In this document: positions 9,964 through 62,539 of the stretch, one piece after another
Position numbering within the stretch: position 1 is the first letter of the stretch
How the letters are laid out: every line of letters starts with the position of its first letter
Assembly (NCBI GenBank): GCA_964016885.1
Contig: OZ024742.1
Location: 156,860,001-156,924,000 of the forward strand
Direction of reading: 5' to 3'
From: Eledone cirrhosa
Lineage: Eukaryota
Length of the DNA stretch: 64,000 nucleotides
Program-made: the position numbers and the translations under genes
Notes under the pieces: generated by a model
The model's input: only the letters and a program-made list of their open reading frames with translations
What the model was told of the DNA's origin: nothing
The model's database searches: none

Positions 9964-10714
9964 AGGAAAAATGAAACGAAATTTCATTTCCCACTCTTAG
10001 TACGGCTGTTACTTAAATATAAGTATGTACACGTACATACATATATGTATACAGACGTACAGTAGTATGTATATGTATATACATACATGCACATATATAT
10101 ATCTACGTATGGATTCACCGAACATTTATTATAATGCTGTGTGTTTGTAAACAAACATCCCGTATTAAGCCGTAGTGTCCAGCAACCATCGTTGTTTGAA
10201 TCCATACGTACATATATATATGTGTGCATGTATGTATATACATATACATACTACTGTACGTATGTATACATATATGTATGTACGTGTACATACTTATATT
10301 TAAGTAACAGCCGTACTAAGAGTGGGAAATGAAATTTCGTTTCATTTTTCCTGTTTATCGTATTCGGTGCACCCGGCCGATTAACCGACTCGATATGCAA
10401 ATTGGGTTACTCAGCCGTTAATATGCATAAGGTAAGTATATACTTTCAACAATCTGGCAGGAAGGTATACGTTGCTGATGATAGCTAATAAGCTTGAAAC
10501 TAGTACAGCGTTCCTTTGTCAGTGTTGAACAAACGAGCAACGATGGTTGCTGGACACTACGGCTTATTACGGGATGTTTGTTTACAAACACACAGAGCAT
10601 TATAATAAATGTTCGGTGAATCCATACGTACATATATATATGTGTGCATGTATGTATATACATATACATACTACTGTACGTCTGTATACATATATGTATG
10701 TACGTGTACATACT

Positions 10715-10720
<6 letters not shown>
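9960..10720 (+). mobile_element. HHR-containing 420-bp monomer element (family R420) with terminal redundancy and an upstream inverted segment
   Basis: 10198-10310 recurs at 10618-10718 (period 420); 9960-10195 is an inverted partial copy; relatives at 16815, 39780 and 62125. Confidence 0.85.
10470..10510 (+). ncRNA. minimal type I hammerhead ribozyme
   Basis: cgttg CTGATGA t-agct aata agct-t GAAA ctag TA cagcg: stem I, canonical core, stem II, palindromic mini stem III, UA cleavage site. Confidence 0.85.
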
Positions 10721-10800
<80 letters not shown>

Positions 10801-10802
<2 letters not shown>

Positions 10803-11313
10803 AAATAGGATTTTGCTTCAAGCATAGCATTATACAATTTGTATAAATATCTCGTATCTCCAATGAAATACGGTTTTAGGAAACCGTAGCTATGCAAACA
10901 CTGGGGAGGCTAACGCCCTCTGGTGATGTCCAGCACAAGCAAGGGGGACAACCCTCTATGCATTTTAGGTTTAACTGGCCTTCGTTAGGACGGTCCCTCC
11001 CACCGCCTGCGACTGTTGGACAAGGAGACAGGCGAGAATATATACGTTTCTCGTCTGTGTAAATGAGGGGATTAATCTCATTTGCATATGAAGCTGCATA
11101 AGTTGGCTCAACTTATAATAAAACAGAAATAGGATTTCGCTTCAAGCAGAGCTTTATACACTTTGTATAAATATTTCGTATCTCCAAAGAAATACGGTTT
11201 TAGTAAGCCGTAGCATTGCAAACACCGGAGGGCTAATGCCCTCTAGTGATGTACAGCAGAAGCAAGAGGAACAACCGTCTATGCATTTCAGGTTTAACTG
11301 GCCATCGTCAGGA
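10801..11313 (-). mobile_element. 324-bp monomer, 1.6 tandem copies, one HHR per unit (family R324)
   Basis: agaaataggattt at 10801 and 11125; many short hairpins; HHR motifs on the minus strand at 10951-10994 and 11274-11313. Confidence 0.85.
11274..11313 (-). ncRNA. minimal hammerhead ribozyme (5' strand of stem I truncated in this copy)
   Basis: Minus strand tc CTGACGA tgg ccagttaaa cct GAAA tgca TA gacggt; the other copy supplies accgtc (stem I) and agg/cct (stem II). Confidence 0.75.
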
Positions 11314-11354
11314 AATAAATACGGGTGCATACGATTGTGTATAGAAGATTTTAT

Positions 11355-11789
11355 TAATAAAAGGAATTCCAAGTTTGTCTGATTTACTCGTTTTATTTAG
11401 AATCCTTTAAAATGTATAATTGTATTATAATGAAATAGTATGGTAGACTATTTAATGTTAAGTGTTAATTGAACAAGTACGTTCATGCTTTCGCAATCTT
11501 CAGGTGCATATTCTGTGGTGACAGTTAAGTTTGCAATTTTCAACTGTGAAAATCTTCACAGTTGAAAATGTTCACAGTTGAAAATGTTCACAGTTGAAAT
11601 TTGCAAATTTGACTGTCACCACAGAATATGAACCTGAAGATTGCGAAAGCATGAAAGTATGAAAGTACTTGTTCAATTAACACTTAACATTTAATATTCT
11701 AACGTAGTTTTTCATTCTAATATCATTATACATTTTAAAGGATTGTAAATAAAACGAGTAACTCAGACAAATCTGGAATTCCTTTTATT
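11355..11789. repeat. long palindrome (about 195-bp arms) with an HHR motif in each arm
   Basis: Centre near 11552 with extra 15-bp ttcacagttgaaaat copies; right arm 11629-11675 reads gaac CTGAAGA t-tgc gaaa gca-t GAAA gta(tgaaagta)c TT gttc. Confidence 0.85.
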
Positions 11790-11801
11790 CATATATATAT
11801 A

Positions 11802-12130
11802 TATTAGAATTGGTGCTCTGAAATAGCTATATATATATATGAATGTATATATAGTGTAATTTGCAATACACTGTATGCTTAATGAAAAGCATTTCGAAGA
11901 CCTTATGCTATTGTTTTAGAGGAGTGACAGACTCACTTACTTTAATTTTCAGCAAACAGGGGGAGATAAAGCTGACAAGGCCTTGTTTCTCATTTATTGA
12001 TGCTTATCAAAGCCAACTACTCCTCCTGTTTGCTGAAATCATGGATGTTTGGTTCCTATAGAATTCTAGTAAATAATCAGGAACTGGTTATACAGAGCGG
12101 TTGCCGGTCAAGCAGAAATTGAAAATTAGA
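11802..12130 (-). mobile_element. about 320-bp element (family R310), diverged copy with a degenerate HHR
   Basis: Homologous to 43946-44410; minus strand 11969-12014 reads ggct TTGATAA ... GAAA caaggccttg TC agct. Confidence 0.75.
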
Positions 12131-16814: not shown

Positions 16815-16820
<6 letters not shown>

Positions 16821-17195
16821 GGAAAATATGAAACGAAATTTCATTTCTCACTCGGCTGTTACTTAAATATAAGTATGTATACGTACATACATATATGTAT
16901 ACAGACGTACAGTTGTATGTATATATATATACATATATACATACATGCACCCATATATATATATGTACGTATGGATTCACCGAACATTTATTATAATGCT
17001 CGGTGTGTTTGTAAACAAACATCCCGAAATAAGCTACAGTGTCTAGCAAAAGAGCAACGATGGTTGCTAGACCATGTACGGCTTAATTCGGGATGTTTGT
17101 TTACAAACACACCAAGCATTATAATAAATGTTCGGTGAATCCATACGTAGATATATATATGGGTGCATGTATGTATATATTTATATATATATACA
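16815..17195. mobile_element. R420 family fold-back fragment (HHR region absent)
   Basis: Homologous to 9960-10200; inverted arms about 16945-17040 and 17075-17175. Confidence 0.8.
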
Positions 17196-17522
17196 TTTGG
17201 GATGGTCATGATGCCAATAAGAAACATACGCACCCGTGCTGTCACTTCATTTTATTATAAATATAATAAATTTTATAAATATAAATTTGATAACTTTCTG
17301 GTTGGTTGGTTGGTTCCACAACCGGATGGTTGTTTATATATTGTCAAAATTATTTCGTCACACATTCTATGACCTCATCAGTGACTCGGGATTATTTTCT
17401 TTGTTTTGTGCCTCTCCTTTGTTCTGTCCTACGCCATCTTGTTTGTCTGTGTGTTATGTGCTAGGTTTGCGCATGTGCTACATTCTGGTGTCTGTGTGTG
17501 TTTTTATTTGTTTATTTATTTG
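17195..17522 (-). mobile_element. HHR-containing element (family R-E)
   Basis: Homologous to 50900-51316; minus strand 17343-17385 reads gtca CTGATGA g-gtca tagaatgtg tgac GAAA taat TT tgac. Confidence 0.78.
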
Positions 17523-17794
17523 AAATGATATATATATATATATTTATTAAAATAACAGATTAAAGTTTAAGCAAATAATCGCTGCTTTCACCCTTTATTA
17601 ACAAATGAAGATATTCGCATAATCAAAATACATGCTTTATTATATATATTTCGAAGGTACTGTGTTGTTACTTTCCATCTTAATTTGTTAATATTTTAAA
17701 TAATATTAAAACTCCAGGAATATTTCACTGTTGAGTGCTTTTAATCTATTGTAAAACTGTATTCATTCAGTAATCAATGAACCATATTAATCTT

Positions 17795-22255: not shown

Positions 22256-22677
22256 AGTCGTTTGGAAGCCTCGACAATGCAAATGGGTAAATCTCCGGGT
22301 AAAAATGTCCAGTGGTGGAGAGAGAGATATGTAAGTGGGTGTACGTTGAGATGCGTGGTGTGTATAAGATGTGTGAGATGTGTAGAATGAAGGGAAGAGT
22401 AAAAGAATAAAAATAATAATAACAACACAAGAGAGAGAGAGTTACCTTGGGAGAGATTTAATAGGGACTATTAAATGTCTCCCAAGGTAACTCTCTCTCT
22501 TGTGTTGTTATTATTATTTTTATTCTTTTACTCTTCCCTTCATTCTACACATCTCACACATCTTATACACACCACGCATCTCAACGTACACCCACTTACA
22601 TATCTCTCTCTCCACCACCGGACCTTATTACCCGGAGATTTACCCATTTGCATTGTCTAAGCTTCCAAACAAACTTA
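22254..22677. repeat. near-perfect palindrome with about 210-bp arms
   Basis: Centre ttaatag-gga-ctattaa near 22466; arms differ at only a few positions; lies between (TA)n tracts. Confidence 0.95.
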
Positions 22678-22723: not shown

Positions 22724-24690
<1,967 letters not shown>

Positions 24691-26561: not shown

Positions 26562-26629
26562 TAAAATAACAGATTAAAGTTTAAGCAAAGAATCGCTGAT
26601 TTAACCCTTAACCGGGTCTTCTGAAACTT

Positions 26630-28200
26630 TCCTCTGAAGAATAGAATTCGTTCTATTAAGGATTCTAATGCCGTGCACGTCCATTCCGACAAAACTGGCA
26701 ACCTATATCAAGTGGAGCGCAGTGCTTACCATCAACTACTACATAATGCTGTAACTAACTATTACCGTAAAACTAATCAGTGCGTCATTAATGAAATCAA
26801 CGATGCTGGGTTTAAAATCACCTCTGATCTCCACATCCTGGACCGGACTGAACATCTGGACCCTATTTCTCCCCACTTTACCCTGATGGATCACAAATCC
26901 AATTTTCCGAACAACCCCTCTATTCGGCTTATTAACCCTACGAAGTCCGATTTAGGTAGACTTAGTAAAATGATTATTGATAGAATTATACCTGAAATTA
27001 GAAGTTTGGCCCCTCTTGCAATGTGGAACAATTCCTTAGCTGTGATTGATTGGTTCAACGGCATATGCAACAATGAACATTGCCGTTTTATCCAATTCGA
27101 CATCAATAATTACTACTCCTCCATCACTTTACCACTTCTCCTTAGAACTATCAATTTCGCTATAACACTCACAGCGGTTAAGGATTTCGAAGTTGATGTC
27201 ATCCTCAATGCCCGTAAGTCGGTGATTAATTTCGACGAGTCTATTTGGATTAACATTTCTAATATACCCCATTCGACGTGAGTATGGCCGACGTTACCCT
27301 AAATTTATCGAATGGCTTGTATTACGCGTATAGAAAGCCGAATGATACGCTTAATTACATAAGTAAGCATTCTAACAATCCTGCCAGCATAACCAAGAAC
27401 CTGAGGCTTTCCCGTCTATTTACTACCAAGCATATTTTCAACGACCATTCCACATATTACAATGAAGGTCTTGCTCGAAGTGGATTTCTCGATAATATAG
27501 CGTATACATAGTACGAGAATAGACCTAGAAGACATAGATCCCGATGCATTATATGGTATAACGCACCATATAATATGAAGGTGGCCACACCATTAGCTAA
27601 GATATTTCTATGCCTTATTACGAAACATTTTCCCCCTACACATAAATATAGTAACATTTTTAATAGAAATACTATTAAAATGTCTTACTCTACCAATCCT
27701 AACCTTGCACATAACATCACAGCTTCTAATTTAGCTAAACTACCTAGCCGTAGGAACACGTGCAACCCTATAGTTAGTACTAACTGTAATTGTAGGAATC
27801 CGGTTGATTGCCCCCTATCCGGGAAATGCCTCTCTAGTAACATTGTCTACAAATGTAAGGTTAAAACATTCAAGTCCCGTAGGACCTACATAGGGTTTAC
27901 CGCCAATAGATTCAAGCAGCGTATTTACACGCATACCCAGTCTTTTCGTTACTCTCTAAGAAGGAATATGACGTCACTTTCAGCTTATATCTGGAGTCTA
28001 AAAGACAAACATACCCAATATAGGTTGCACTGGTAGATCCTAGTTTAGGCTAGAACGTATAACGGAAATAAAAGACCATGTGACCTCTGCGCCGCTGAAG
28101 CTCTGGAAATACTCTACGCCAATGACCACATCCCCCAAAAAAATCTGAGGCAATTTCGCCTTGTAAACATAAATTGCATAAAACTTTCCTGTGTGTTACA
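26630..28200 (+). pseudogene. PLE reverse transcriptase/GIY-YIG endonuclease, disrupted
   Basis: SDKTGNLY, RLINPTKSDLGRLSK, FIQFDINNYYSSI, YRKPND..YISKHSN, CNC.....CPLSGKC, VYKC..TYIGFT; a deletion near 27290 removes YRDD. Confidence 0.92.
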
Positions 28201-32246: not shown

Positions 32247-33300
32247 CTTTGAGAAAAAGGTATTTTAAATTGGTAAAGTATTAGATATTAGCTGTATACT
32301 TTATGGAATGTTTTGTGGAATTTATGCAAGCAGAGAGAAAATAAGTCAGTGCGTCTATTTATTATAGAATATAAATTAAATATAATGGTACATTTTTCAC
32401 ATAAACAGAGATTACATGTTTTCGATATAGAGGCATTCAAGTATGGAGAGGCAGAACAAACTTTCCTCCAACATATGTTATAGTTAATATTTTGTCTTTC
32501 AAGGACCATATGAGTTCTGAGAGTGCCGTGTTGGTTCTTTTAAGTTGGTATTTAAAAAACGAATGATGATTATAAAGACGAGCTTTAAAGGGGGTGGAAG
32601 TGGAGCCAAAATAGGTAAAGGAATTGGTGTCAGTTATAACTTTACATTCATAGATTATGTTTTTTTTCAAGACAATGGTTGTTGAAAGTACATTTATTTT
32701 TAACAGGGCAATTACAATTGCGATTAGAGAAAATAACAGAGTTATTAACAAGTGACCTAGTGTTATCTGTATGAGGAATTGGATTGGAGAAGTTATTTAC
32801 GATAGGAATAATAGTTTCTTGATTTAGATTGGGGTTAAGAACATTTAACGAGGATGCGTTTAACGTCGTATTTGGGTTTGCAGAAATTAGCCTAGTGTTA
32901 ACAATGACGTCGGGAGTACTATTACTATTATTATGATATTCAGTGTTGGAAGGAAGAGATTTAATATTTAGTATTTTATTGTTGTGTTTAGAGATACTGT
33001 TGGAGATGTTGGAGCAGGTCGAATAGGAAAATGTTATAGTGTGTTTGTTAAATATTTTACTATAGATATGTGATGGAGGGAAGCATTTATTTAAGGCACT
33101 AAATAATAATTTAGGAATATTATTATCTATAGAGATGGAGAAAGGAGCATTATACCACATTATGTTTTTGTATCTAGGTCTTTTATTACAGTTATTGGAA
33201 TGATCATGATTAGTTATTTTACTGTAAGATCTTCTAGGATTGGTTTCTTTACTGTATTTGATTTTATCAGGATAACCGTCTTTAGAAAGCGCGGTATTAT
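30930..33300 (-). mobile_element. inverted 3' half of Penelope-like element PLE2
   Basis: Reverse complement of 33780-34217 plus 37665-39745; ORF pieces WYNAPFS, CNCPVKNKC, IYECKV..TYFGST, CNLCLCEK. Confidence 0.93.
30961..31031 (-). ncRNA. hammerhead ribozyme in the PLE2 3' end
   Basis: tattttat CTGACGA aaac-gcaaatggcatc gcat gatgatatttgt-tttt GAAA tgcgta TA ataaaata. Confidence 0.8.
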
Positions 33301-34217
33301 AGAGGTGATACCTCTAACAACTTTGACATTACAATGGGTGCATCCGATTCATCCCAATTAACAGCTTTAATTGGTATCTTTCTTTTGAACTCTTTGAATC
33401 TGAAAATTCCTCAACTTCGCGGTGGAATTTTTACTATGGTCTTTTTACTATCTTAAATTTTTACTATGGTCTTTTTACTATCTTAAATTGCAACATAGTT
33501 AGCCTTAATATTATTAAGAACAATATACGTGATCTCTTTAACCAACATAACTTAAATATTGAATTTGATAACAACATAAAACTAGCTAACATCTTGGATA
33601 TATCTCTTAATCTTGACACTGGCCTATATTACCCTTACCATAAAAACAATGTGAATCTAAATTATGTTTATTTTAAATCTAACCACCCCACTAATATTAA
33701 AATTGCTATAGTTAGTAATATTGGAAAAAGAATATCCAACCTATCATGTAATAAAAACATCTTTGATGCTAACGCCAATTACTATAATAACGCGCTTTCT
33801 AAAGCCGGTTATCCTGATAAGATCAAATACAGTAAAGAAACCGATCCTAGAAGATCTTACAGTAAAATAATTAATCATGATAATTCCAATAACTTTATTA
33901 AAAGACCTAGATACAAAAACATAATCTGGTCTAATGCTCCTTTCTCCATCTTTATTAATAATAATATTCCTCAATTAATCTTTAGTGCCTTAAATAAATG
34001 CTTCCCTCCCTCACATATCTATAGTACAATATTTAACAAACACTATAAAATGTTCCTAGTCGACCTACTCCAACATCTCCAACATTATCTCTAAACACAA
34101 CAATAAAATACTAACTACTAAATCTCTTCCTTCCAATACTGAATATCATAATAATAGTAATAGTACTCCCGACGTCATTGTTAACTCTAGGCTAATTTCT
34201 GCAAACCCAAATACGAC

Positions 34218-37200
34218 AGGTCACCAGTTGGTGCTACTGGTAACATGTATCCCAGTACAACCTGTATCGTGGTCGGGTCGTTGGCACTAAACTGGCAACC
34301 CCACCAAGGTTTCTTGGTGAGGAGGCTGACTGTGGACATCCTGCAAGAATAAAAACAAAACATGTCAAAGGGCAAAGGAGCTCTTAAGAGTCAATGGCCA
34401 TCCAAAATCACCGGGAGAGATGAACCCTTAGCCTTTGTCAAGGCAGAATTCTATGAGAAGGAAAACTCTGATATAACACCTGCAACCCATCGGTTTGCAG
34501 TTCTACCAGAGACTACTCAACGTACTGTCTCTTTACTAAATGTCAGTGGTTGGGCTTCAGGTTAGCGACCTATTCCCGGAAAAACTCTTCTGCTACGAAA
34601 ACAATTCATAGTGCATCAGATTTAAATTCCAAGCAGTCAGGAGAACGGTTGTCTATAACTGGAGATTGTATGGCGGGTGTTGGCGAAATTCTCAATGAGG
34701 AAGCCGACAACCTGAGGACCAGAATTCTGTCTGCAAAACCAACCACACGTATTGGATATTGGAACATATGAACTATGTACCAACCATCCAAACTTTCGCA
34801 AGTTATCGGAGAAATGGAGGCCTACAAAATTAACATCCTGGGCCTCAGCGAGGTCCGCTGGACTGACTCTGGGAAGTTTATCCATGAAAACAAGATCATC
34901 CTGTTCTCAGGCCGTCAGAACGGGACTCACCGAGATGGAGTTGCAAACATCATGGACAGGGCTGCCAGTGGTGCCCTTGAGGTGTGGACTCCTATCAACG
35001 AACGCCTAATGACAGTAAGATTCACCACATCACATGCAAACGTCACCATAGCTCAGTGCTATGCTCCAACCAACGAACATAACGATGTTGACAAGGACGC
35101 TTTCTACCAGCAACTACAAGATGTTGTAAACAAAACCCCACGTCATGACATCCTGATCATCATGGGAGACATGAACGCACAGATCGGGGGAAGCAGGGTT
35201 GGCTTTGAACATGTCCTTGGCCCCCATGCTTACGGAAACCGCACGGACAACGGGGACAGGTTTGTCCAGTTCTGTTCCATGAACAATATGAAAATCGGCT
35301 CGTCACTATTTGACCAGAAGAACATCCACAAGATCACATGGGCTTCGAACGACCTCAGGACCAAGACGCAAATAGACCACATTGCAATTGGCCCAAGTTG
35401 GACAGCTCCTTGCCTGCAGGACGTCCGAGTCTACCGAGGCGCAGATGTCTGCAGTGACCACTATCTGTCTGTTACCAAACTTAAAATCAGACTGAGGAAG
35501 CAGAAGAAGAGAGCACTCACTACAAGGCGTGTTGACACTACCAAGCTGAAGAACGGTGACACAGAAGCACAGTTCGAGGCTGCTTTGAGGAACAGATTTG
35601 CTGTCCTTGAGGAGTCTGCACCAGGCTCGGACAATTGGTGGGAGGAAATGAAGAAGACCATGGAAGCTGCAGGGAAAGAAATCCTGGGCTACAGGAAGTC
35701 CCTCAGAGAAGCTTGGGTTAGTGACAACACCTGGCAGCTGATTAATGAAAGGAAAGCCCTACACCAGCAGAGGCATGCCACTACCCAAGAGGCCATCAAG
35801 GTATATCAGCAGTATGTTGACAAGGACAAGGAGGTGAAACGCAGCGCCAAAAAGGACAAACGAATGTGGCTTGAGGGTAAGGCAGATGAGGCGGAAGCAG
35901 CTGCGGCACGCAATGACATGCGTTCTGTGTACCAAATTGCCAAGAAAATCACCGGCAGCTCTTGAGCTAACTCAGGCCCGGTGAAAGCGAAAGTTGGTAC
36001 TTGCTTTCCAAAGGTGAAGAAAAGTTAGTTAGATGGGCTGAACATGTTAAGGAAGTCCTCAACCGACCGGAGCCACGTGTGCCAGCAGATACTAAGGAAC
36101 CTACTAGTGTGCTGTCTATCAATACTGATTACTTCACCGAGAAGGAAGTCCGCATAGCCATCAATACCCTTAAGAATAACAAGTCACCAGGTATGGATGG
36201 CATTTCTGCTGAAATGCTGAAGTCAGAATGTGAAAGCATGGTCAAGTGGATGGGCCACTTATGTAATCTTGTGTGGAACACGGGTGAAGTCCCAGAAGAA
36301 TGGAGAAACGGAGTGGTTGTCTGTATCCCCAAGAAGGGCAACCTTGCCGATTGTGACAACTGGAGGGGAGTGACACTTCTCTCCATACCAGGGAAGGTCT
36401 ATTGTCTGATGATCCTGAACCGCATACGTGGCATGGTAGACCGGGAACTGCGAGAGCAACAGGCAGGGTTCCGATTAAAACGTTCCTGTGCAGAGCAGAT
36501 ATTTACGTTACGCCGCATCATTGAGAGGTACAACGAATTCCAGAGGCCCGTCACCATCAGCTTCATCGATTTCTCCAAAGCATTCGATAGCATTCATCGG
36601 CCGTCACTCTGGAGCATCATGCAAGAGTTTGGTCTGCCTCAGAAAGTCATTTCGGCAATCAAACAGATTTACGCAAGCTCCATGTGCTGCATACGGACAG
36701 AGGATGGTTACAGTGACTGGTTTGAGGTGGTTACTGGTGTGCGTCAAGGTTGCTCGCTCTCTCCAATTCTCTTTGCCATAGCCATTTACTGGGTACTAAG
36801 AAGAGCGTCTAAAGACCAGGGTATATCCTGGGTGGGAGATCAAAAGTTGTCTGACCTGGAATTTGCGGACGATATTGTTGCACTTGCAGAGAGCACAGCT
36901 GACCTGTAAATCATTATGAACAATATCAATGTCGAAGCAGGAAGCTTAGGTCTCAATATCAGTGCTAAGAAGACCAAAATCATGTTATCTGGGACACACG
37001 CATCACCAACTAGTGTTTTCATTGAACAAGGGGATGTGGAGATAGTGGACAGCTTCACCTACCTAGGAAGCTCCATTGACAATGGCGGCGCCATGGACAG
37101 TGAATTGCAATGTAGAATGGGAAAGGCTTCAGCAGGATTTAACCAGCTTGTCAAGATCTGGAAGAACAGGAAGTTCACCCTCAAAACAAAGATGAGATTC

Positions 37201-37655
37201 TACAACAGCAACGTGCTGTCCACACTCTTGTACGGAAGTGAAACATGGCATCTTAAGACCAGCCAAGAGAAGAAGTTGGACGCATTCGATTCCAGGTGTC
37301 TGCGAAAGATCCTGGGGATTAAATGGAGTGACCATGTAAGAAACCAGGAAGTCAGGAACCGCACCAACCAGCAGCTAGTCTCTTCTGCCATCTGCAAGCG
37401 ACGCCTGGGCTGGTTTGGGCACGCTTTGAGACTTCCCGCGGAGAGACTGGCGAACCAAGTACTTAAATGGAACCCACAGGGAAGTGGACAGAGAGGGCGA
37501 CCCAAAATGAACTGGCGCCAGACAGTTGAGAGGGACCTGCGAGCGACAAACAGATAATGGCGGGACGCTGTTTAACTGGCTGCTGACCGAACGCGGTGGA
37601 ACACTATGATTGCCTCATGCGTCGCAAGACGCGGGAGCTTCTGAGCATGAGTCTG
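34218..37655 (+). mobile_element. full-length RTE-clade LINE (about 3.44 kb)
   Basis: 9-bp TSD aaatacgac (34209-34217 and 37656-37664); the empty site is visible in the inverted PLE2 copy near 32865; short ctgag-type 3' repeat; GC-rich relative to flanks. Confidence 0.95.
34671..37644 (+). pseudogene. APE endonuclease plus reverse transcriptase ORF, inactivated
   Basis: IGYWNI, GLSEVRW, CYAPT, MGDMNA, QIDHI, SDH; RT motifs KSPGMDGI, NWRGVTLL, QAGFR, IDFSKAFDS, GVRQGCSLSP, FADD; stops at 34769, 35963, 36907, 37555 and a frameshift near 35990. Confidence 0.95.
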
Positions 37656-39780: not shown

Positions 39781-40380
39781 GGAAAAGAATGAAACGAAAT
39801 TTCATTTCTCACTCTTAGTACGGCTGATACAGAATTACGCCGTACAGTGCTCGGTAAACCCATACGTACATATATATATGTGTGCATGTATGTATATATA
39901 TACATACTACTGTACGTCTGTACACATATATGTATGTACGTATACATACTTATATTTAGGTATCAGCCGTACTAAGAGTGAGAAAGGAAATTTGGTTTCA
40001 TTCTTTTCCATTTATCGTTTTCGGTACGCCCGTCTGATTAACTCACTCCATATGTAAGTTAGCTGCTCAGCCGTTAATATGCATAAGGAAAGTATATACT
40101 TTCAAACGTTCAATCATCTGACAGAAAGGTATGCGCTGCTGACGGTAGCTAATAAGCTTGAAACTTGTACATCGGTCCTGTGTCAGTGTTGAACAAAAGG
40201 GCGACAATGGTTGCCGAGCACTGTACGGCGTAATTCGGGCAGTTTGTTTACAAACAAACCGAACATTATAATAAATGTTCGTTAAACGCATACGTACATA
40301 TATGTATGTGTGCATGTATGTATATACATACATACTACTGTACGCCTGTACACATATATGTATGTACGTATACATAGTTA
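39780..40380 (+). mobile_element. R420 family element with short inverted 5' piece and terminal redundancy
   Basis: Period about 428 (39861 vs 40289); mutated HHR at 40134-40174 (CTGACGG ... GAAA cttg TA). Confidence 0.85.
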
Positions 40381-43664: not shown

Positions 43665-43884
43665 TTTCTGAATTTGTTTAGCAAGATTCTTCACTGTAGA
43701 GGTCAAAGAATGTGTGACGAAAGAACTTTGACAATATATAAACAACCATCCGGTTGTGGAATCAACCAACCATCCGGAAATTTATAAATTCCTAAATTTA
43801 TAAATTTATTATAATAAATTGAAGTGAAACCTACTGCTGCGCGTGTTTCTTATTGGCAACATGACCCTCCCAAGTATAACAATA

Positions 43885-43886
<2 letters not shown>
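43660..43886 (+). mobile_element. R-E family fragment
   Basis: Matches 51118-51316, preceded by an inverted piece matching 51345-51373; mutated HHR core CTGTAGA; (TA)n flanks. Confidence 0.8.
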
Positions 43887-43950: not shown

Positions 43951-44410
43951 GATTGATGCTCTGAAATAGCGATGGATTACATGAATATATGTATAGTATA
44001 TTTGGCAATACACCGTATGTTTAATTAAAAACATTTTGAAGACCATACGCTATCGGTTTTAATGTAGTGACTATGTCACTTACTTCTTTTCGGCGTTTAC
44101 ATCTGATCGGTGAATACATCGCTATTTCACAGCACCAATCCTAATACCTAATCTTTGCTGGACCGGCAATCGCTCTGTATAATCAGCTCCTGGTTATTAC
44201 TTGAATTCTATAAGAATCCAGCTTCTTTAATTTTCGGTGGAAGCAGGGAGTGCGTGGCTCTGATGATCGCCAAACAGCGTGAAACAGACTGTTAGCTTCT
44301 CTCCATTCTTTCGCCGAAAAGAAGTGACATAGTCATTACTTTAAAACCGATAGTGTATGGTCTTCAAAATGTTTTTAATTAAACATACGGTGTATTTCCA
44401 AATACATATA
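43946..44410 (+). mobile_element. R310 family element: inverted segment plus a permuted monomer with HHR
   Basis: 43946-43973 mirrors 44117-44145 and 43995-44095 mirrors 44312-44410; HHR at 44256-44297. Confidence 0.82.
44256..44297 (+). ncRNA. minimal type I hammerhead ribozyme
   Basis: ggct CTGATGA t-cgc caaaca gcg-t GAAA cagactg TT agct. Confidence 0.75.
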
Positions 44411-44442
44411 CATACATTCCTATATATATAAATAAAGGGATA

Positions 44443-50806: not shown

Positions 50807-51375
50807 ATACTTTGGGAGGGTCATGTTGCCAATAAGAAACACACGCACCAGTTGCTTTCACTTCAATTTATTATATATTTATAAATTTACAACTTACAAT
50901 TAAGGACAAAATGAAAACACACACACACATAGAACAAACAACCAACCAATAACATGTAAATAAATAAATAAATAAACAAATAGATAAATGAACATAAACA
51001 CACACAGACACCCGGATGTGGCGCATGCGCAAACTGAGCACACAACACACACACAGAAACAAAATGGCGTAGGACAGAAGAAAGGAAAGGCACAGGAACA
51101 AAGAAAGGAATCCCCAGTCACTGAAGAGGTCACAGAGTGTGTGACGAAAGGACTATGACTATATATAAACAACTATCTGGTTGTGGAACCAACCAACCTA
51201 CCAGAAATTTATAGGTTTGTAAATTTGTAAATTTTTAAATATATAATAAATTGAAGTGAAATCAACTGGTGCGTGTGTTTCTTATTGGCAACATGACCCT
51301 CCCAAAGTATAACAATATCGGTTTCAACACACGATTTCAGATAAATAATCTTGCCAAACAAATTCAGAAACGAAA
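50801..51375 (+). mobile_element. R-E family element with about 100-bp inverted repeats and an HHR
   Basis: 50801-50898 mirrors 51218-51316, with an unpaired tail to 51375; (TA)n flanks. Confidence 0.82.
51116..51160 (+). ncRNA. minimal type I hammerhead ribozyme
   Basis: agtca CTGAAGA g-gtcaca gagtg tgtgac GAAA ggac TA tgact. Confidence 0.75.
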
Positions 51376-51384
51376 TATATATAT

Positions 51385-54300
51385 ATATATATAAAGTGAA
51401 GTTTGGCGTTGTTTGTTTGTTTGTTTGTTTGGTGTCCCGAACTTGCAGGCTACACCGTTCATCCTATTTTCATGAAATATGACACATATACAAAACTCTA
51501 CCCGCAGACTGGAATACGCTACTTGAAATTTTCGAAAAATCGATAATTGGGCCCCGAGAAGCCAAATTTCGATATTTTCAAAAATCGTCTGATTTCGATG
51601 GGACTAGAAGCAAGTGTGTATTTTGATCGGGGGATAAACGGGGGCTACACTAAATTTTCGAGAAGTCGATAATTGGATCACCAGAGGCAAAAATCGATAT
51701 TTACGAAATTTGTCCGATTCCAATGAAATTTGCCGTAAGGATGTATTTTGATGTGGGGATCAACGTGGGGTACTTGAATTCCATAATCGGACCCCCAGCG
51801 GCAAAAATCGATATTTTCAGAATTCGTCCGGTTTCAATTAAATTTGATATTACCAGAATAATAGATCCATTAGGAATTACTCCAAGGCTGCAAACATCCA
51901 GAAAGTTTTTAAACACATAAACCATGCGTTAAATGAGACCTTTAAGTGTTAGGGCAGACAATTATTCATAGTTTAATTATCAATGGCGCAATATTGTGGA
52001 AATATGCAAATCTACGCCTTTCTTTATGGGAAAATGGACGGCTTTACAAACAGATATTCAGGGTTCTTTGAGTAGAATTCTTAATTCTTAAATAATTGTA
52101 CAATCAACAAAATATATGACAGAATGTTTTTCATATTTTTTTGAAAAATCTTTCGATTTCAATGAAATTTAATGTGTATGTATTCGAACGCAAACACTTT
52201 TAGTTTACAGCTGGCGCAATCAAAATCAATTTCATATGCCCATATAAGCACGTACACACTGTGACTCATGCGCGTTATTGATTGGATGGCCTGTCTATAC
52301 CACTAGCAGTATGTTTTCTCAACGATAGATACACAAACAGATATGCACGCACGTGCGAACCGCCTTTTTCTCTTTGTGTGTATCCGCTTTTTGTGAACAA
52401 CAATAAACCCGCTGTCTCACTAGACGGACCTTTACAGAATTTTCCCACTTACTTATCGATGAGTTAGTGCTTATTAAGTTCGACTACTTGCATGCCATTT
52501 CAGTTAAATTTAATTCATTTTTCGCCTTCCTTAAATTTAAAAATCCCCATTGAGACTAGGGATTGTCGACATCTTAGGGTAAAACTTTTCATATTCCGCC
52601 TTATTCAAGTGCAAATACATATTATCCCTATCTGAAAGGAATCCAAATTTAATGGTGTCATTTGTGACGCCAAAAGCTAAAAGCGGTGAGTATATTTTCA
52701 AACAGTCTTAAATCATCATGCTTTTTGAAAAAAAATTACTAAATAATACCTTGACCAAGTTGTATTGGACACATACAAAGTTGTAAAAAATGTTACGTCC
52801 ATACCAGTTTTTTCCTTTTTTTAAACAAAAGCTTCTAAAAAATTACTTAATTCATAACACTACTGTCACAGCCTTTTGCACAGGAAGTGAGTAAGGTTTC
52901 GAGTTTTTAAACGTAAGTTCACCAGGGTTTGTGTCTTTTCCATTATTAGCCCACCTCTAATAGCATTTTTTGTTCTGTTTACGACTAAATGTTATGAGCG
53001 TATTTGCAAATTGCTATTGTTTTTTTAATGTTTTTAATTAGTTGCCATAGACCATCTGCATGCAGTGCAATTGATTGCGCACACGTACATACCTGCTAGC
53101 AGATAAACACTGACAGGTACTAAAAAATCGATAATTTGCTTATTAAGACATCAGTCAAAAAGAGAGATTGAATGTACTTTAGAAAACTTTTTGAAAATAT
53201 TGTTCGTTTTGGCATGATATGTCAGAAATATAGCTACTATTTACTTTGGTTATTTTTTGTAACTAAGAAACGGTTTTTTTGGGATGGATACTTAACGAGA
53301 AAGATCCCAGGTTTGGGACAAGTTTGATTCAGGCGCTGTATAGGCGCCAATTTTGTCACACCTTGGTGATGGATTCATATTATTTTCCAATAGATACTGT
53401 ATTTTCCGCTCTATAAGGCTCACCGGGATATAAGGCGTATCATTTAAAATCAGGTCCGCGCAACGGCGTGTAAGGCCAACCAGTAAAATGCTATCTTCTT
53501 TACTTTTAGTCTAGATCTATTACTTTTGTTAGAGCCGTGATTGATTACCATTGTATTATTTATACATAAGGCTCACCGGAGTATAAAGCGCGGAGCTGTT
53601 TTTTGATGAAATTTAGGTAATTTAAGTGCACTTTATAGGCCTGATAATTCGTTATTATAATCATATTTCCAAACCTTCCCATTCACCAGTAACCATGCTC
53701 CCGAATCTGGTCTAACCTCTCTCTGTACTTAATCACCCCTCTCTAACCTAACAGCGTCGTTACACGTCGTTATGGCCACACGGAAACGTTCAAGACCTAC
53801 CTCCCAAAAAGATACAGCTACTGCTTTGAGACGATGAATTATGCGTTCTCAGGTATGCCTTCATTCACAATTGGTTAATCCCTTAATGTTAGCAAGCACT
53901 ACGTTTATCCTAACTGTCACCACGTTTAAGCAACTACAATATTCTAATCGTAGTTATATTAAATGTATTGACTAACCTTGATTCCCTTTTGTTCATATTA
54001 CATTTTTCTCATTGACTATTGGCACAGTGCCTTTGGATTAGCTAACTACTAGCATTAATTAACTTTCTCTAGGAAACACCTGCTCAGCGTGAATCTCAAC
54101 TCGCTGATAGACCTATTTCCCGGCTCGTTGAGTCACCAACGCCTTGCTGGCGTTCGCCTTCATCCCCAACATACGCTTGCAGAGGAGTCACCAACATCTC
54201 GTACGACGCGGCTTGCTGGCGTTCGCCATCGTCACCAACAAGCGCTTGCAGAGGAGTCACAAACATCCCGTCAGACGAGGCTTGCTGGGGTTCGCCTTCA

Positions 54301-57464: not shown

Positions 57465-59050
57465 CCTGAATATTTCTACAAAGAACATACCCGTACATAG
57501 CAGGAAGGCATATTTAAGACTTCTTAAACAAATGACGGATTCGTTCCTTAAAAGGTTCCGTTGGCGCGCCTTTTATTTAGATAACCAGGAAAAAGCGGAC
57601 AATAAACAGGATAAATTTGGGTTTAAAACTTATAATTGTCTCTACTTTAGCCACAAGGCCAGCAATTACCCAGTGCATTACTGGTACTTTATTTTATCGA
57701 CCCTGTAAGGATGAAAGGCGGGATTTGAACTCATATCGTAAAGGGACGTAACTATGCTGGAAAGAATGGCGTCCAACCGTCTACTTATACTGCCAATCCA
57801 CCGCCCTTGAAAACTTATAATAACCCTTCGAGTAACCCAGCATTGTTATCTTTCGAAAACGATGCGTTGGATCTCATGCGGAGTATCAAATTTCGGAACA
57901 GGAGCAATTCCTTCGAACAAGACCTGAAGAAAAGAATTCGTTCTATTAAGGATTTTAATGTCGTGCATGTCCGCTCCGACAAAACTGGTAATATATATCA
58001 AGTGGAGCGCAGTTCTTACCATCAACTTCTACATAATGCTGTCACCAATGATTACTGGAAAACCGATCGGAGTGTCATTAATGACATCAATGATGCTGGG
58101 GTTAAAACACTTCAGAACTCAACATCCAGGTCCGGACTGAACCTCTGGACCCTACTTCTCCCCCACTTTAACCTGAAGGATCACAAACCCAATTCCGCTA
58201 AAAACCCTTCTATTCGGCTTATTAACACTACGAAGTCTAATTTAGGTAGACTTAGTAAAAGGATTTTAGATAGAATTATACCTGAAATTAGAACCTTGGC
58301 CCCTCTTGCACCGTGGAATAATACTTTCGCGGTGATTGATTTATTCAATGGCATTTGTAATAAGGAAAATTGCCGTTTTATCCAATTCGACATCAATAAA
58401 TACTACTCCTCCATCACTTTACCACATCTTCTTAGAGCTATCAATTTCGCTAAAACGCTCACCTTGGTTAAGGATTTCGAAGTTCATGTCATCCTGAATA
58501 CCCGTAAGTCGGTGATTAATTTCGACGACTCTATTCGGATAAAAACATCTAATAGTACCCCATTCGACGTGCGTATGGGCGCCAGCGATTCGGTGGAGGT
58601 TACAGATCTTATCGGCCTTTTCCATCTTTTCTCTATCAAGAAAGAATTCCCTAACGTGGGCGGTAGTGTGTACCGCGATGACACTCTTTTGACCATAACA
58701 AAGTGCGGACCCCGCACTTGCGACAGGTTTTTAAAAGAACTCACAGCCCTCTTTAAAGGCTTTAACCTCTCCATACAAGTTGAGGCCAACCTTTTGGTCG
58801 TACACTACCTCGAGGTTACCCTCAATTTATCTAATGGCTTGCACTACCCGTAAAGAAAGCCGAATGATACGCTTAATTACATCAGTAAAGCATTCTAACC
58901 CTCCTGCCAGCATAACCAAGAACATGGTAAGAAACATTTCTCTGAGGCTTTCCCGTCTATCTACAAACGATCATATTTTCACCGACCATTCCACATATTA
59001 CAATGAAGCTCTTGCTCGGAATGGATTTGTTGATAAGTTAGCATATACTA
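57465..59050 (+). pseudogene. PLE reverse transcriptase, disrupted
   Basis: 348-aa open stretch 57807-58853 with the RT motifs including YRDD; SINE insertion and a stop at 58851. Confidence 0.92.
57637..57809 (-). mobile_element. SINE inserted in the PLE1 ORF
   Basis: 12-bp TSD aaaacttataat (57625-57636 and 57810-57821). Confidence 0.93.
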
Positions 59051-59330: not shown

Positions 59331-60920
59331 AAAAAAGTAGAATTGAGATGGAGGTTTTGTGGTTTGTCTCGCATCTGGTTGGTGTTCGAATGTTACTTCT
59401 GTTTTATATAGAAAAAAGTGGCTCGAAATGCTATGTTTTTAGAAAAGTTGTTTTGGTTGATTGATGACAGTCATGTGAATAAGTATAATAAATTTCGTGA
59501 TAGTTCGCATTACAAAGTTCTTATTATATTTGCCTTACAAAAGGAGGGGGGGGGGTCAGCTTTTTTTTTACATATATGAGTGAAATTTGGTTGGTTGATG
59601 CAGTGACGTGAATAAACACATCAACTTTCACGCCAGTTTGTGTTTGAGTTTCTTTTTACTTAAAAAAGTGGCTCAAACATTTTGTTTGTATAAATGTAAT
59701 TTAATAGGTTATAAATAAAATATTTATTGTCACATGTATTTTAAATTTCGTACCCGTATTTGGGAATGTTTTTTTTTGTAGCCATTTAGAGAATTTTGTG
59801 CAAAACAAGAGATAATGGTAAAAAAAAAGGTATGGGGAGAATTGTTCTTGTTCAGTGAATATGGCTGATGTGCTGAGGTGTCAAAATTCAGCCTTTCTAT
59901 TGAAATGAAGAAAGTAGAGATATGTATTTTTATTTGTGTGTATGTATAGGAAAATGATTCTATTAGTAGAAATGGGGGAGGGAGTTATGTCTGTGTGTGT
60001 ATGGGTGTTATATGTGTGTGTGTATGGTTGTGTGGTAGTATGGTTAGCATGTTAATGTGGAGAGAATATATATTTGTGTGTGTGTGTGTGTGTGTGTGTG
60101 TTTGTGTGTGTGTGTAGGAAAATGATTCCGTTAGTAGAAATGGAGGAGGAAGTTATGTGTGTCTGGGGGGTATGGTTAGCAAGTTAAGGTGTTAGTGTAT
60201 TAATGAATGTTAAGGTTTATTTAGCTCTGGTTTTAATTTTCGAAGATAGAAGCTGTTTTGTGTGCGCGTATCTATATGTCTGTTTAGATGGTTAGCATGT
60301 TATGGTGTTAACATAATGTATATTAAACTATATTTAATGCTGGTCTATATTTTTTAATAAACATATTTTCCTTATTTATTCGTATTTGTTCTGTTGTCTT
60401 GTCAACGCAAAGATAAAATGGGAAGACTCGGAATGTCTAGATGTGTACAGAGTGGTATCTGTCTTGAGGTAGGGTCTCGCAATTATTGGCGATGAATTGT
60501 CATTCTGTTTCTCAGTATGTGTTTAGTTTGTCCTATAAAATCTTCATTGCATCCTTTATATTTAATGGCATACATTAATCTTTTTGATGATCAATTGAAG
60601 TGATTTTTTACAACCAAATGTTGTCCTGATTGAAATGTATACATGTTGCCTTCAATGAGGTGAGTGCAGCTTCCACAATTAGAGCGACCACATTTTTTGA
60701 CAGTTGGGTGTGGGTTTGTGGTAATTTGGCATTGGTGTGTAATGATTTTAGTGATTTCGGTTGTATTTTGCTTTTGATTATTTTGTGTGTAACCAACCAA
60801 ATTACTTTTCTAAAAACATAGCATTTCGAGCCACTTTTTTCCATATAAAACAGAAGTAATATTCGAACACCATCAGATGCGAGAAAAAAAACAAACCCTC
60901 CATCTCAATTATACTTTTGA
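59331..60920 (-). mobile_element. PLE4 3' fragment (GIY-YIG) with inverted terminal segments
   Basis: KKCGRSNCGSCTHLIEG, LMYAIKYKGCNEDFIGQT, ENMFIKKYRPALN; 59333-59460 mirrors 60793-60918. Confidence 0.8.
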
Positions 60921-62076: not shown

Positions 62077-62124
<48 letters not shown>

Positions 62125-62130
<6 letters not shown>

Positions 62131-62539
62131 TTCGTTTCATTCTTTTCCATTTATAGTTTTCGGTGCGCCCGGCCGATTATCTAACTTGATATGCAAATTA
62201 GGCTGCTGAGCCGTTAATATCTATAAGGAAAGTACATAATTTTAGACGTTCAATCATCTGACAGGAAGATATACGATGCTGACGATAGCTAATAAGCTTG
62301 AAACTAGTACATCGTCCATGTGTCAGTGTTGAAACAAAAAAGGCGACGGTGGTTGTCTGAACACTGTACGGCGTAATTCGGGCTCTTTGTTTACAAATAA
62401 ACCGAACGTTATAATAAATGTTCGGTAAACCCAGCCGTTATATATATGTTTGCATGTATGTATATGCATACTATTGTACGGCTGTATAAATATATGTATG
62501 TAAGTATACATACATACTTATATTTAAGTATCAGCCGTT
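62125..62539 (+). mobile_element. R420 family monomer
   Basis: Nearly one full unit, starting at gaaatttcgtttcat; (TA)n on the left. Confidence 0.85.
62273..62315 (+). ncRNA. minimal type I hammerhead ribozyme
   Basis: acgatg CTGACGA t-agct aata agct-t GAAA ctag TA catcgt, with a perfect 6-bp stem I. Confidence 0.88.

What the first reader, a model, noticed from the sequence alone, without database searches (positions are those of the whole stretch)
10801..11313. R324: tandem, hairpin-rich monomer bounded by two HHRs
HHR motifs recur about 324 bp apart on the minus strand, so double cleavage would release one monomer. The unit is full of short hairpins: ttataca/tgtataa, tacggtt/aaccgta, gagggc/gccctc, acaggcgagaa/ttctcgtctgt, gtaaatgag/ctcatttgc and ataagttg/caacttat. 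This branched, viroid-like fold is the best retrozyme candidate in the window. Each genomic HHR is damaged in a different place, and together they reconstruct accgtc CTGACGA agg..cct GAAA tgca TA gacggt.
Basis: partly seen in the sequence, partly recalled or inferred. Interest (0 to 1): 0.75.

Follow-up and report, generated by a model that had tools for sequence, protein, structure and literature searches.

The report
Dead copy of a Penelope-mobilised retrozyme
This is a broken copy of a 323-base non-coding repeat, present at over a thousand places in this animal genome, that carries a hammerhead self-cutting RNA motif and likely spreads, probably as an RNA circle, by borrowing the enzyme of Penelope-like retrotransposons, whose typical insertion ends it shows.

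Summary
Two type I hammerhead (HHR) motifs lie 323 bp apart on the minus strand, and the reconstructed HHR equals the family consensus. The unit is a dispersed repeat: 1,069 intact-core HHR matches, four subfamilies and one array of about 10 units. The consensus circle folds far better than shuffles (z -7.4). Ten of 103 base pairs change compensatorily between subfamilies (null mean 1.4), five of them in the HHR. This locus is probably dead: one HHR lost most of stem I, the other has G5A and G12A. Insertions show the Penelope-like element (PLE) signature: (TA)n targets, 5'-truncated partial tandems, inverted arms and two 3' ends about 42 nt apart. In 29 of 30 inverted insertions one arm ends at each site, as in an autonomous PLE of the same genome. 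Best reading: an animal non-LTR retrozyme, that is a non-autonomous PLE. It is a new member of a known kind. Cleavage, expression, circles and the partner enzyme are untested or not found. The added value is junction-level support for the open idea that PLE machinery mobilises retrozymes.

The parts
10801..11313 (-). R324 insertion, 1.58 units, 5' end inside HHR1, 3' end at the long terminus
   Evidence: alignment to family consensus; self-blast
11274..11313 (-). HHR1: core intact, 5' arm of stem I reduced to 2 bases, two mismatches in stem II
10951..10994 (-). HHR2: G5A (10986), G12A (10966), stem I mismatch (10954); predicted inactive
   Evidence: role of G5 and G12 is recalled hammerhead biochemistry
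10957..11279 (-). cleavage-to-cleavage monomer, 323 nt (predicted sites)
   Evidence: circular z -4.2
11251..11273 (-). 3' extension of stem I; pairs with 10995-11021 to form the long closing stem
   Evidence: consensus pair probability 0.76-0.93, one compensatory pair in subfamily C
10995..11021 (-). partner arm of the long closing stem
11223..11248 (-). hairpin with gagggc/gccctc
   Evidence: pair probability 0.98; two compensatory pairs in C, alignment gappy there
11177..11196 (-). hairpin just upstream of the short 3' terminus; candidate protein-binding or RT-start hairpin (inferred)
   Evidence: U-G, U-A, A-U series across subfamilies
11154..11170 (-). ttataca/tgtataa hairpin, which contains the short terminus position (11164 in unit 1)
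11097..11117 (-). ataagttg/caacttat hairpin
   Evidence: pair probability 0.96
11061..11083 (-). aaatgag/ctcattt hairpin; broken in subfamily C
11028..11058 (-). acagacgagaa/ttctcgcctgt hairpin; one compensatory pair in C
10801..10840 (-). PLE-type 'tail': stretch between the short and long 3' termini of the family
10715..10800 (.). (TA)n microsatellite, the inferred insertion target
   Evidence: 75 of 98 short or long ends are followed by TA repeats

Best explanation
R324 is a non-coding, hammerhead-bearing tandem retroelement (an animal non-LTR retrozyme) that is likely copied into (TA)n repeats by the RT/GIY-YIG protein of a Penelope-like element, probably from a circular RNA, and the window copy is a predicted-inactive 1.58-unit fossil. 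Shown: dispersed family, intact consensus HHR, compensatory changes, stable fold, PLE-type ends. Inferred: a locus with two intact HHRs is read through; the two HHRs pair through their palindromic helix III and cut out a 323-nt monomer; the monomer is ligated to a circle in which the lone HHR cannot fold its helix III; a PLE protein nicks (TA)n and starts reverse transcription at two internal sites about 42 nt apart, one for each target strand; the copies run round the circle and stop early, giving partial tandems, inverted arms and occasionally long arrays.
For: Copy number: 690 exact 29-mer matches and 1,069 intact-core matches, controls 0. Fold: z -7.4, -7.2 and -9.0 for subfamilies A, B and C. 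Covariation on the fold of A alone: 10 of 103 pairs, null mean 1.4, 0 of 10,000 re-pairings; 5 of 12 HHR pairs with none broken; 5 of 91 elsewhere, p 0.0003. Stem II variants form a stepwise series through G-U intermediates, and a helix III variant stays palindromic after a 2-nt insertion. Ends: 98 of 126 arms stop at two sites, and 29 of 30 inverted pairs have one of each (p 3e-8). An autonomous HHR-bearing PLE in the genome behaves the same way, and so does a related 420-bp family. Units in one insertion share source variants (c122T in 10 of 11 tandem and 24 of 24 inverted pairs, against 15% between loci) yet have diverged about as much as unrelated copies, so the tandems date from insertion. 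Eight of 8 aligned units of the 10-unit array share one private change and are otherwise mostly star-like. Only 1 of 125 arms starts at the cleavage site, so cleaved linear RNA is not the usual template.
Against: No cleavage, expression or circle data. No autonomous partner with a related terminus was found among 90 loci of three PLE families. Only 2 of 27 positionally sampled loci hold two HHRs in one arm. Fifteen of 91 non-HHR pairs break in some subfamily, and one hairpin breaks in C. The reverse complement folds better than the sense strand (z -10.1). Some diagnostic sites are not concordant within loci (c273 0 of 4 inverted pairs; c25 1 of 8 and 3 of 9). In the only PLE reconstituted in vitro, HHR cleavage was dispensable for insertion (PMC11167929). 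In PLE HHR dimers in vitro activity was low (PMC4209133), and 8 of 9 Xenopus retrozyme dimers did not cleave (10.64898/2026.07.22.740005).
Confidence: 0.68

Rival explanations
1. Non-autonomous PLE copied from uncleaved linear tandem transcripts. The HHR trims the RNA or has another job, and no circle is on the transposition path.
For: In the anole Poseidon PLE, RT starts internally and unprocessed RNA is the main substrate (PMC11167929). Copies crossing the cleavage site fit this as well as a circle.
Against: A linear template can only lose units. Yet the family kept making more-than-unit copies across subfamilies 79-95% identical, and it produced a 10-unit array with one shared private change. 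The closing stem joins sequence on both sides of the HHR, as expected for a circle. Circles are reported for mussel, coral and axolotl retrozymes (PMC7229834, passages).
Confidence: 0.22
2. The unit is only the pseudo-LTR of an autonomous PLE, and the copies are its 5'-truncated debris.
For: Same ends, HHR type and target as autonomous PLEs. PLE protein fragments lie in the flanks of 15 of 150 family loci.
Against: 47 full units run head to tail into themselves with no ORF. The neighbouring PLEs read in sequence (L010, L012/L031, L094) have their own termini or are separated by (TA)n and other repeats; the other flank hits were seen as coordinates only. No unit-like terminus in 90 PLE loci.
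Confidence: 0.06
3. A satellite or minisatellite spread at the DNA level, with a vestigial HHR.
For: Tandem units, arrays up to about 10 units, and one closer pair of units in the array (u5-u10, 7.5%).
Against: Dispersed on many chromosomes, fixed 3' ends, scattered 5' ends, inverted arms, tandem units about as diverged as unrelated copies, and compensatory HHR changes.
Confidence: 0.04

Closest known systems
Metazoan non-LTR retrozymes (Cervera and de la Pena 2020, PMC7229834; mussel 350-390 bp, axolotl 331/353 nt, newt satellite 2)
   Same: Type I HHR once per 150-450 bp tandem unit, GC under 50% (43.5%), non-coding, highly self-paired, thousands-scale copy number, PLEs in the same genome; short palindromic helix III as in the amphibian dimer-acting HHRs.
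   Different: Mostly 1-2 unit dispersed insertions in (TA)n with inverted arms and two fixed 3' ends; target-site duplications were not looked for; circles and cleavage untested.
Non-LTR retrozymes as non-autonomous PLE derivatives (Li, Clavereau, Pollet, bioRxiv 10.64898/2026.07.22.740005)
   Same: Same proposed relation to PLEs; monomer-rich families with few long arrays.
   Different: Their evidence is co-occurrence and pLTR homology in Xenopus. Here it is insertion-junction anatomy in an invertebrate, and no homologous pLTR was found.
EN+ Penelope-like elements and their pLTR and tail (Craig et al. 2021, PMC8557442; Frangieh et al. 2024, PMC11167929)
   Same: Partial tandems, an inverted 5'-truncated arm, a tail at only one end, microsatellite bias, HHR upstream of the RT start sites.
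   Different: No ORF. The tail is about 42 nt (30-40 quoted in the papers; 60 in the autonomous PLE examined here). The unit is circularly permuted onto itself.
Non-autonomous Chlamys elements such as MRC1 (Craig et al. 2021)
   Same: Non-autonomous PLEs with multicopy head-to-tail insertions.
   Different: Green algal; those resemble their autonomous partners at the 3' end, whereas no partner is identified here.

Membership tests
Type I hammerhead ribozyme | CUGANGA, GAAA and UH core with stems I and II | tested here: met
   consensus; 94 of 140 complete copies intact in a sample biased towards intact copies; not met by the two window copies
Type I hammerhead ribozyme | covariation of stems I and II | tested here: met
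   5 of 12 pairs compensatory, none broken
Type I hammerhead ribozyme | Rfam hammerhead model match | tested here: not met
   no hit at gathering score in the window; no hammerhead hit on R324 among the 150 of 151 rows listed for 4 loci
Type I hammerhead ribozyme | self-cleavage (as a dimer for palindromic helix III) | not testable with these tools
   palindrome present and kept in variants; activity needs an assay
Non-LTR retrozyme | HHR in each unit of a 150-450 bp tandem repeat, low GC, no ORF | tested here: met
   323-339 nt units, GC 0.435, longest ATG ORF 42 aa in A; a 103-aa frame appears only in the noisy C consensus
Non-LTR retrozyme | loci with two consecutive intact HHRs | tested here: met
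   13 of 36 arms with two or more HHRs; not the window locus
Non-LTR retrozyme | highly self-paired monomer | tested here: met
   64% paired, z -7.4, 0 of 200 shuffles
Non-LTR retrozyme | expressed as linear and circular monomer RNA | not testable with these tools
Non-autonomous Penelope-like element | partial tandem plus inverted 5'-truncated arm | tested here: met
   47 inverted pairs in 74 loci
Non-autonomous Penelope-like element | tail: two 3' ends a few tens of bases apart, the tail at one end only | tested here: met
   98 of 126 arms; 29 of 30 pairs discordant
Non-autonomous Penelope-like element | microsatellite or AT-rich target | tested here: met
   75 of 98 against 5 of 27
Non-autonomous Penelope-like element | terminal homology to an autonomous partner | tested here: inconclusive
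   none in 90 loci of three families; 17,000-39,000 first-look candidates per protein query remain unsampled
Autonomous PLE | RT plus GIY-YIG ORF between pLTRs | tested here: not met
   47 full units without an ORF
Viroid-like replicon | RNA-to-RNA replication, ribozymes in both polarities | tested here: inconclusive
   the descriptor scan found HHR motifs only on the minus strand of this locus; replication not testable

The most novel reading that the evidence does not exclude
R324 and its relative R420 are an old clan of circular-RNA parasites in which the site of reverse-transcription initiation can be read off the genome. A PLE enzyme primes both target strands at two fixed points of one RNA circle, one per strand. 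This gives direct genomic evidence that animal retrozymes move by PLE machinery through a rolling-circle template, and a minimal 323-nt substrate for reconstituting PLE integration.
Probability: 0.45. Interest if true: 0.6.

Novelty: new member of a known kind. Interest (0 to 1): 0.4.

Why it matters
Which enzyme mobilises animal retrozymes is still a hypothesis. PLEs are called 'a strong candidate' (PMC7229834), and a 2026 preprint argues from co-occurrence and pLTR homology in frogs while leaving the mechanism open. This family carries the PLE-specific tail and inversion signature almost without exception (29 of 30), with an in-genome autonomous control. It also gives a natural covariation series for a dimer-type hammerhead. 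The window locus itself is an ordinary dead copy.

Tried and rejected
Expression: no RNA holder listed; the three runs laid were contigs of unrecorded kind and served only to find sister subfamilies through loose ends. Rfam: nothing at gathering score; the E-value scan gave AT-repeat miRNA noise and one weak Hammerhead_HH9 match on R420 (E 0.099). Partner search: three PLE protein queries, 30 loci each, showed no R324-like terminus. The only echo is a short ACGAAAT just before an end (E 0.015-0.04, mostly TA). A 27-aa blastp match of the B antisense frame to a PLE ORF (E 0.006) was taken as chance. The PLE ORF next to R324 in L012 was rejected as partner because (TA)n and other repeat sequence separate them. 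The first B consensus mixed A' and B and was replaced. The 324-nt consensus had one duplicated base at the junction; the true unit is 323, and searches use the 324 numbering. Print searches: searches returned no paper describing this family or a PLE tail on a retrozyme. The library lacks most subscription journals, Repbase and Dfam were not available, and the supplements of PMC7229834, of the bioRxiv preprint and one file of PMC4209133 could not be seen; they may list this or a similar family.

Full report
Observation. The window lies on contig C3 of a 3.0-Gb animal genome; that it is probably a cephalopod is my recalled impression of its repeats and was not tested. A descriptor scan finds type I hammerhead motifs at 11311 and 10988 on the minus strand, 323 bp apart. 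The locus is 1.58 units, from 11313 to 10801, followed by (TA)n at 10715-10800. All six hairpins exist; two were spelled on the plus strand. Rfam gives no hit.

The window copy is probably dead. HHR1 keeps 2 of 6 bases of the 5' arm of stem I and has two stem II mismatches. HHR2 has G5A, G12A and a stem I mismatch. That G5 and G12 are essential is recalled hammerhead biochemistry. In a strand-swapped dimer one core would use HHR1's missing arm and the other HHR2's mutated core, so neither is complete (inference).

Family. DNA searches gave 2,108 and 2,371 first-look candidates, which are not copy numbers. An exact 29-mer matches 690 times, and a pattern demanding the intact core matches 1,069 times; reversed controls gave 0. 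Copies of subfamily A differ from their consensus by 4.1%, with CpG sites at 8.2% against 3.6%. In a sample biased towards good copies, 94 of 140 complete HHRs are intact and 13 of 36 arms with two or more HHRs have two intact ones. In the positional sample only 2 of 27 loci hold two HHRs in one arm, and the median arm is 273 bp. One array of about 10 units lies on C2. Loose ends in sequencing contigs led to sister subfamilies A' and B (696 pattern matches together) and C (166), with consensuses 79-95% identical.

Structure. The circular consensus folds at -109.1 kcal/mol, z -7.4, 0 of 200 shuffles; B and C give z -7.2 and -9.0. The window monomer gives z -4.2. Four of 83 GC-matched window tiles reach that value, one being R324, with a median of -0.3. 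The antisense strand folds even better (z -10.1), so energy alone does not name the strand; the HHR does. On the fold predicted from A alone, 10 of 103 pairs change on both sides in another subfamily (null mean 1.4; 0 of 10,000 re-pairings). Five of these are among the 12 pairs predicted in the HHR region, none broken. Five are among the 91 others (p 0.0003), where 15 pairs break, including one hairpin in C. The test rests on four related consensuses, and two of the outer pairs lie in a gappy alignment. Stem II variants run stepwise through G-U intermediates, the cleavage triplet moves among AUA, AUC and AUU, and a helix III variant stays palindromic after a 2-nt insertion. This is the canonical metazoan HHR geometry, 6-bp helix I, 4-bp helix II and a small palindromic helix III, described as acting in dimers (PMC4209133, parts 1-2 of 4 read).

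Insertion anatomy. I analysed 74 non-redundant subfamily A loci, 48 ranked by similarity and 26 taken by position; duplicates and the array were left out. Of 126 arms, 98 end in one of two 15-base windows, about 42 nt apart, that I chose after seeing the data and that cover 9% of the unit. Those ends abut TA repeats in 75 of 98 cases, against 5 of 27 for other ends. Of 47 inverted pairs, 30 have both ends in these windows, and 29 of the 30 have one short and one long end (p 3e-8; 11 of 12 in the positional set); the other 17 pairs have at least one end elsewhere. 5' ends are scattered, and 1 of 125 lies at the cleavage site. Craig et al. describe partial tandems, an inverted truncated arm and a 30-40 bp tail at one end as PLE hallmarks (PMC8557442, passages). 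Frangieh et al. show that the tail is the stretch between two internal RT start sites, and that HHR cleavage is dispensable in vitro (PMC11167929, parts 1-2 of 4 read). Positive control: a young autonomous HHR-bearing PLE of this genome (ORFs to about 1,240 aa) ends in (TA)n at two points 60 nt apart. Of 30 loci, 16 are short, 11 long, 2 read through and 1 is unresolved, and 3 of 3 inverted pairs, paired by their coordinates, are discordant. A distantly related 420-bp HHR unit with a copy at window 10475 has ends 56 nt apart, 8 of 8 such pairs discordant among 19 loci, and arrays of 5-6 units.

Origin of the tandems. Units within an insertion differ by 7.6% (tandem) and 6.4% (inverted), against 7.8% between loci. 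They share 14.6% and 17.9% of their variants, against 4.0%. The source variant c122T is shared in 10 of 11 tandem and 24 of 24 inverted pairs against 15% between loci, although c273 and c25 are less concordant. In the array, 8 of 8 aligned units share one private change and otherwise diverge mostly independently. The units were therefore made at insertion from one template lineage. A circle explains this best; an uncleaved tandem transcript is not excluded.

Partner. No R324-like terminus was found in 90 loci of three PLE families, a small part of the PLE load. PLE fragments lie in the flanks of 15 of 150 family loci; the three that I read in sequence are separate insertions.

Comparison. It works like, and meets the sequence-level criteria of, an animal non-LTR retrozyme (PMC7229834, passages), and it meets the insertion criteria of a non-autonomous PLE. 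A 2026 preprint already proposes that identity from Xenopus pLTR homology, and found cleavage in 1 of 9 dimers (10.64898/2026.07.22.740005, parts 1-3 of 5 read). PMC6765202 and PMC8967140 were seen as passages. Searches showed no description of this family; unseen supplements and Repbase or Dfam may hold one.

Verdict. Real, a new member of a known kind, with a dead copy in the window. Interest 0.4, for the junction-level support of PLE-driven retrozyme mobilisation and the covariation series.

Noticed in passing
window 10060-10700 (HHR at 10475, +); also 39857-40364, 62124-62526, 16815-17189: R420: a younger 420-424 bp HHR tandem family (97-98% identity, arrays of 5-6 units, z -7.2) with the same two-end rule and weak homology to R324 subfamilies B and C; likely a better target for expression tests.
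   Followed up: partly
window 50889-51393 (HHR at 51121, +); copies at 17190-17546 and 43691-43885: Pseudo-LTR of a young autonomous PLE with ORFs to about 1,240 aa elsewhere in the genome; two 3' ends 60 nt apart; used as positive control.
   Followed up: partly
window 11320-11793: A separate inverted-repeat insertion with HHR motifs at 11634 (+) and 11503 (-) whose longer end abuts the truncated 5' end of R324; which came first was not resolved.
   Followed up: no
window 43983-44430 (HHR at 44260) and 11809-12120: Another HHR-bearing inverted-repeat family.
   Followed up: no
window 24125-24665 and 60438-60755 (minus): Decayed GIY-YIG ends of PLE ORFs.
   Followed up: partly
window 34772-37555 (+): Frame-shifted LINE ORF with endonuclease and RT-like stretches (RTE-like by recall).
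   Followed up: no
window 26625-28034, 32650-34092, 57729-58851: ORF fragments that look PLE-like, possibly Hydra-type by recall; not tested.
   Followed up: no
window 22288-22610: Near-perfect long inverted repeat (fold z about -61 on 25 shuffles).
   Followed up: no
L159/L233 and relatives: PLE family with intact 796-aa ORFs and a long low-complexity TG/TA-rich 3' region; my descriptor found no family HHR in its 3' flank.
   Followed up: partly
subfamily C consensus: A 103-aa ATG frame crosses the HHR in the noisy C consensus; no match to the PLE proteins tested; probably chance.
   Followed up: partly
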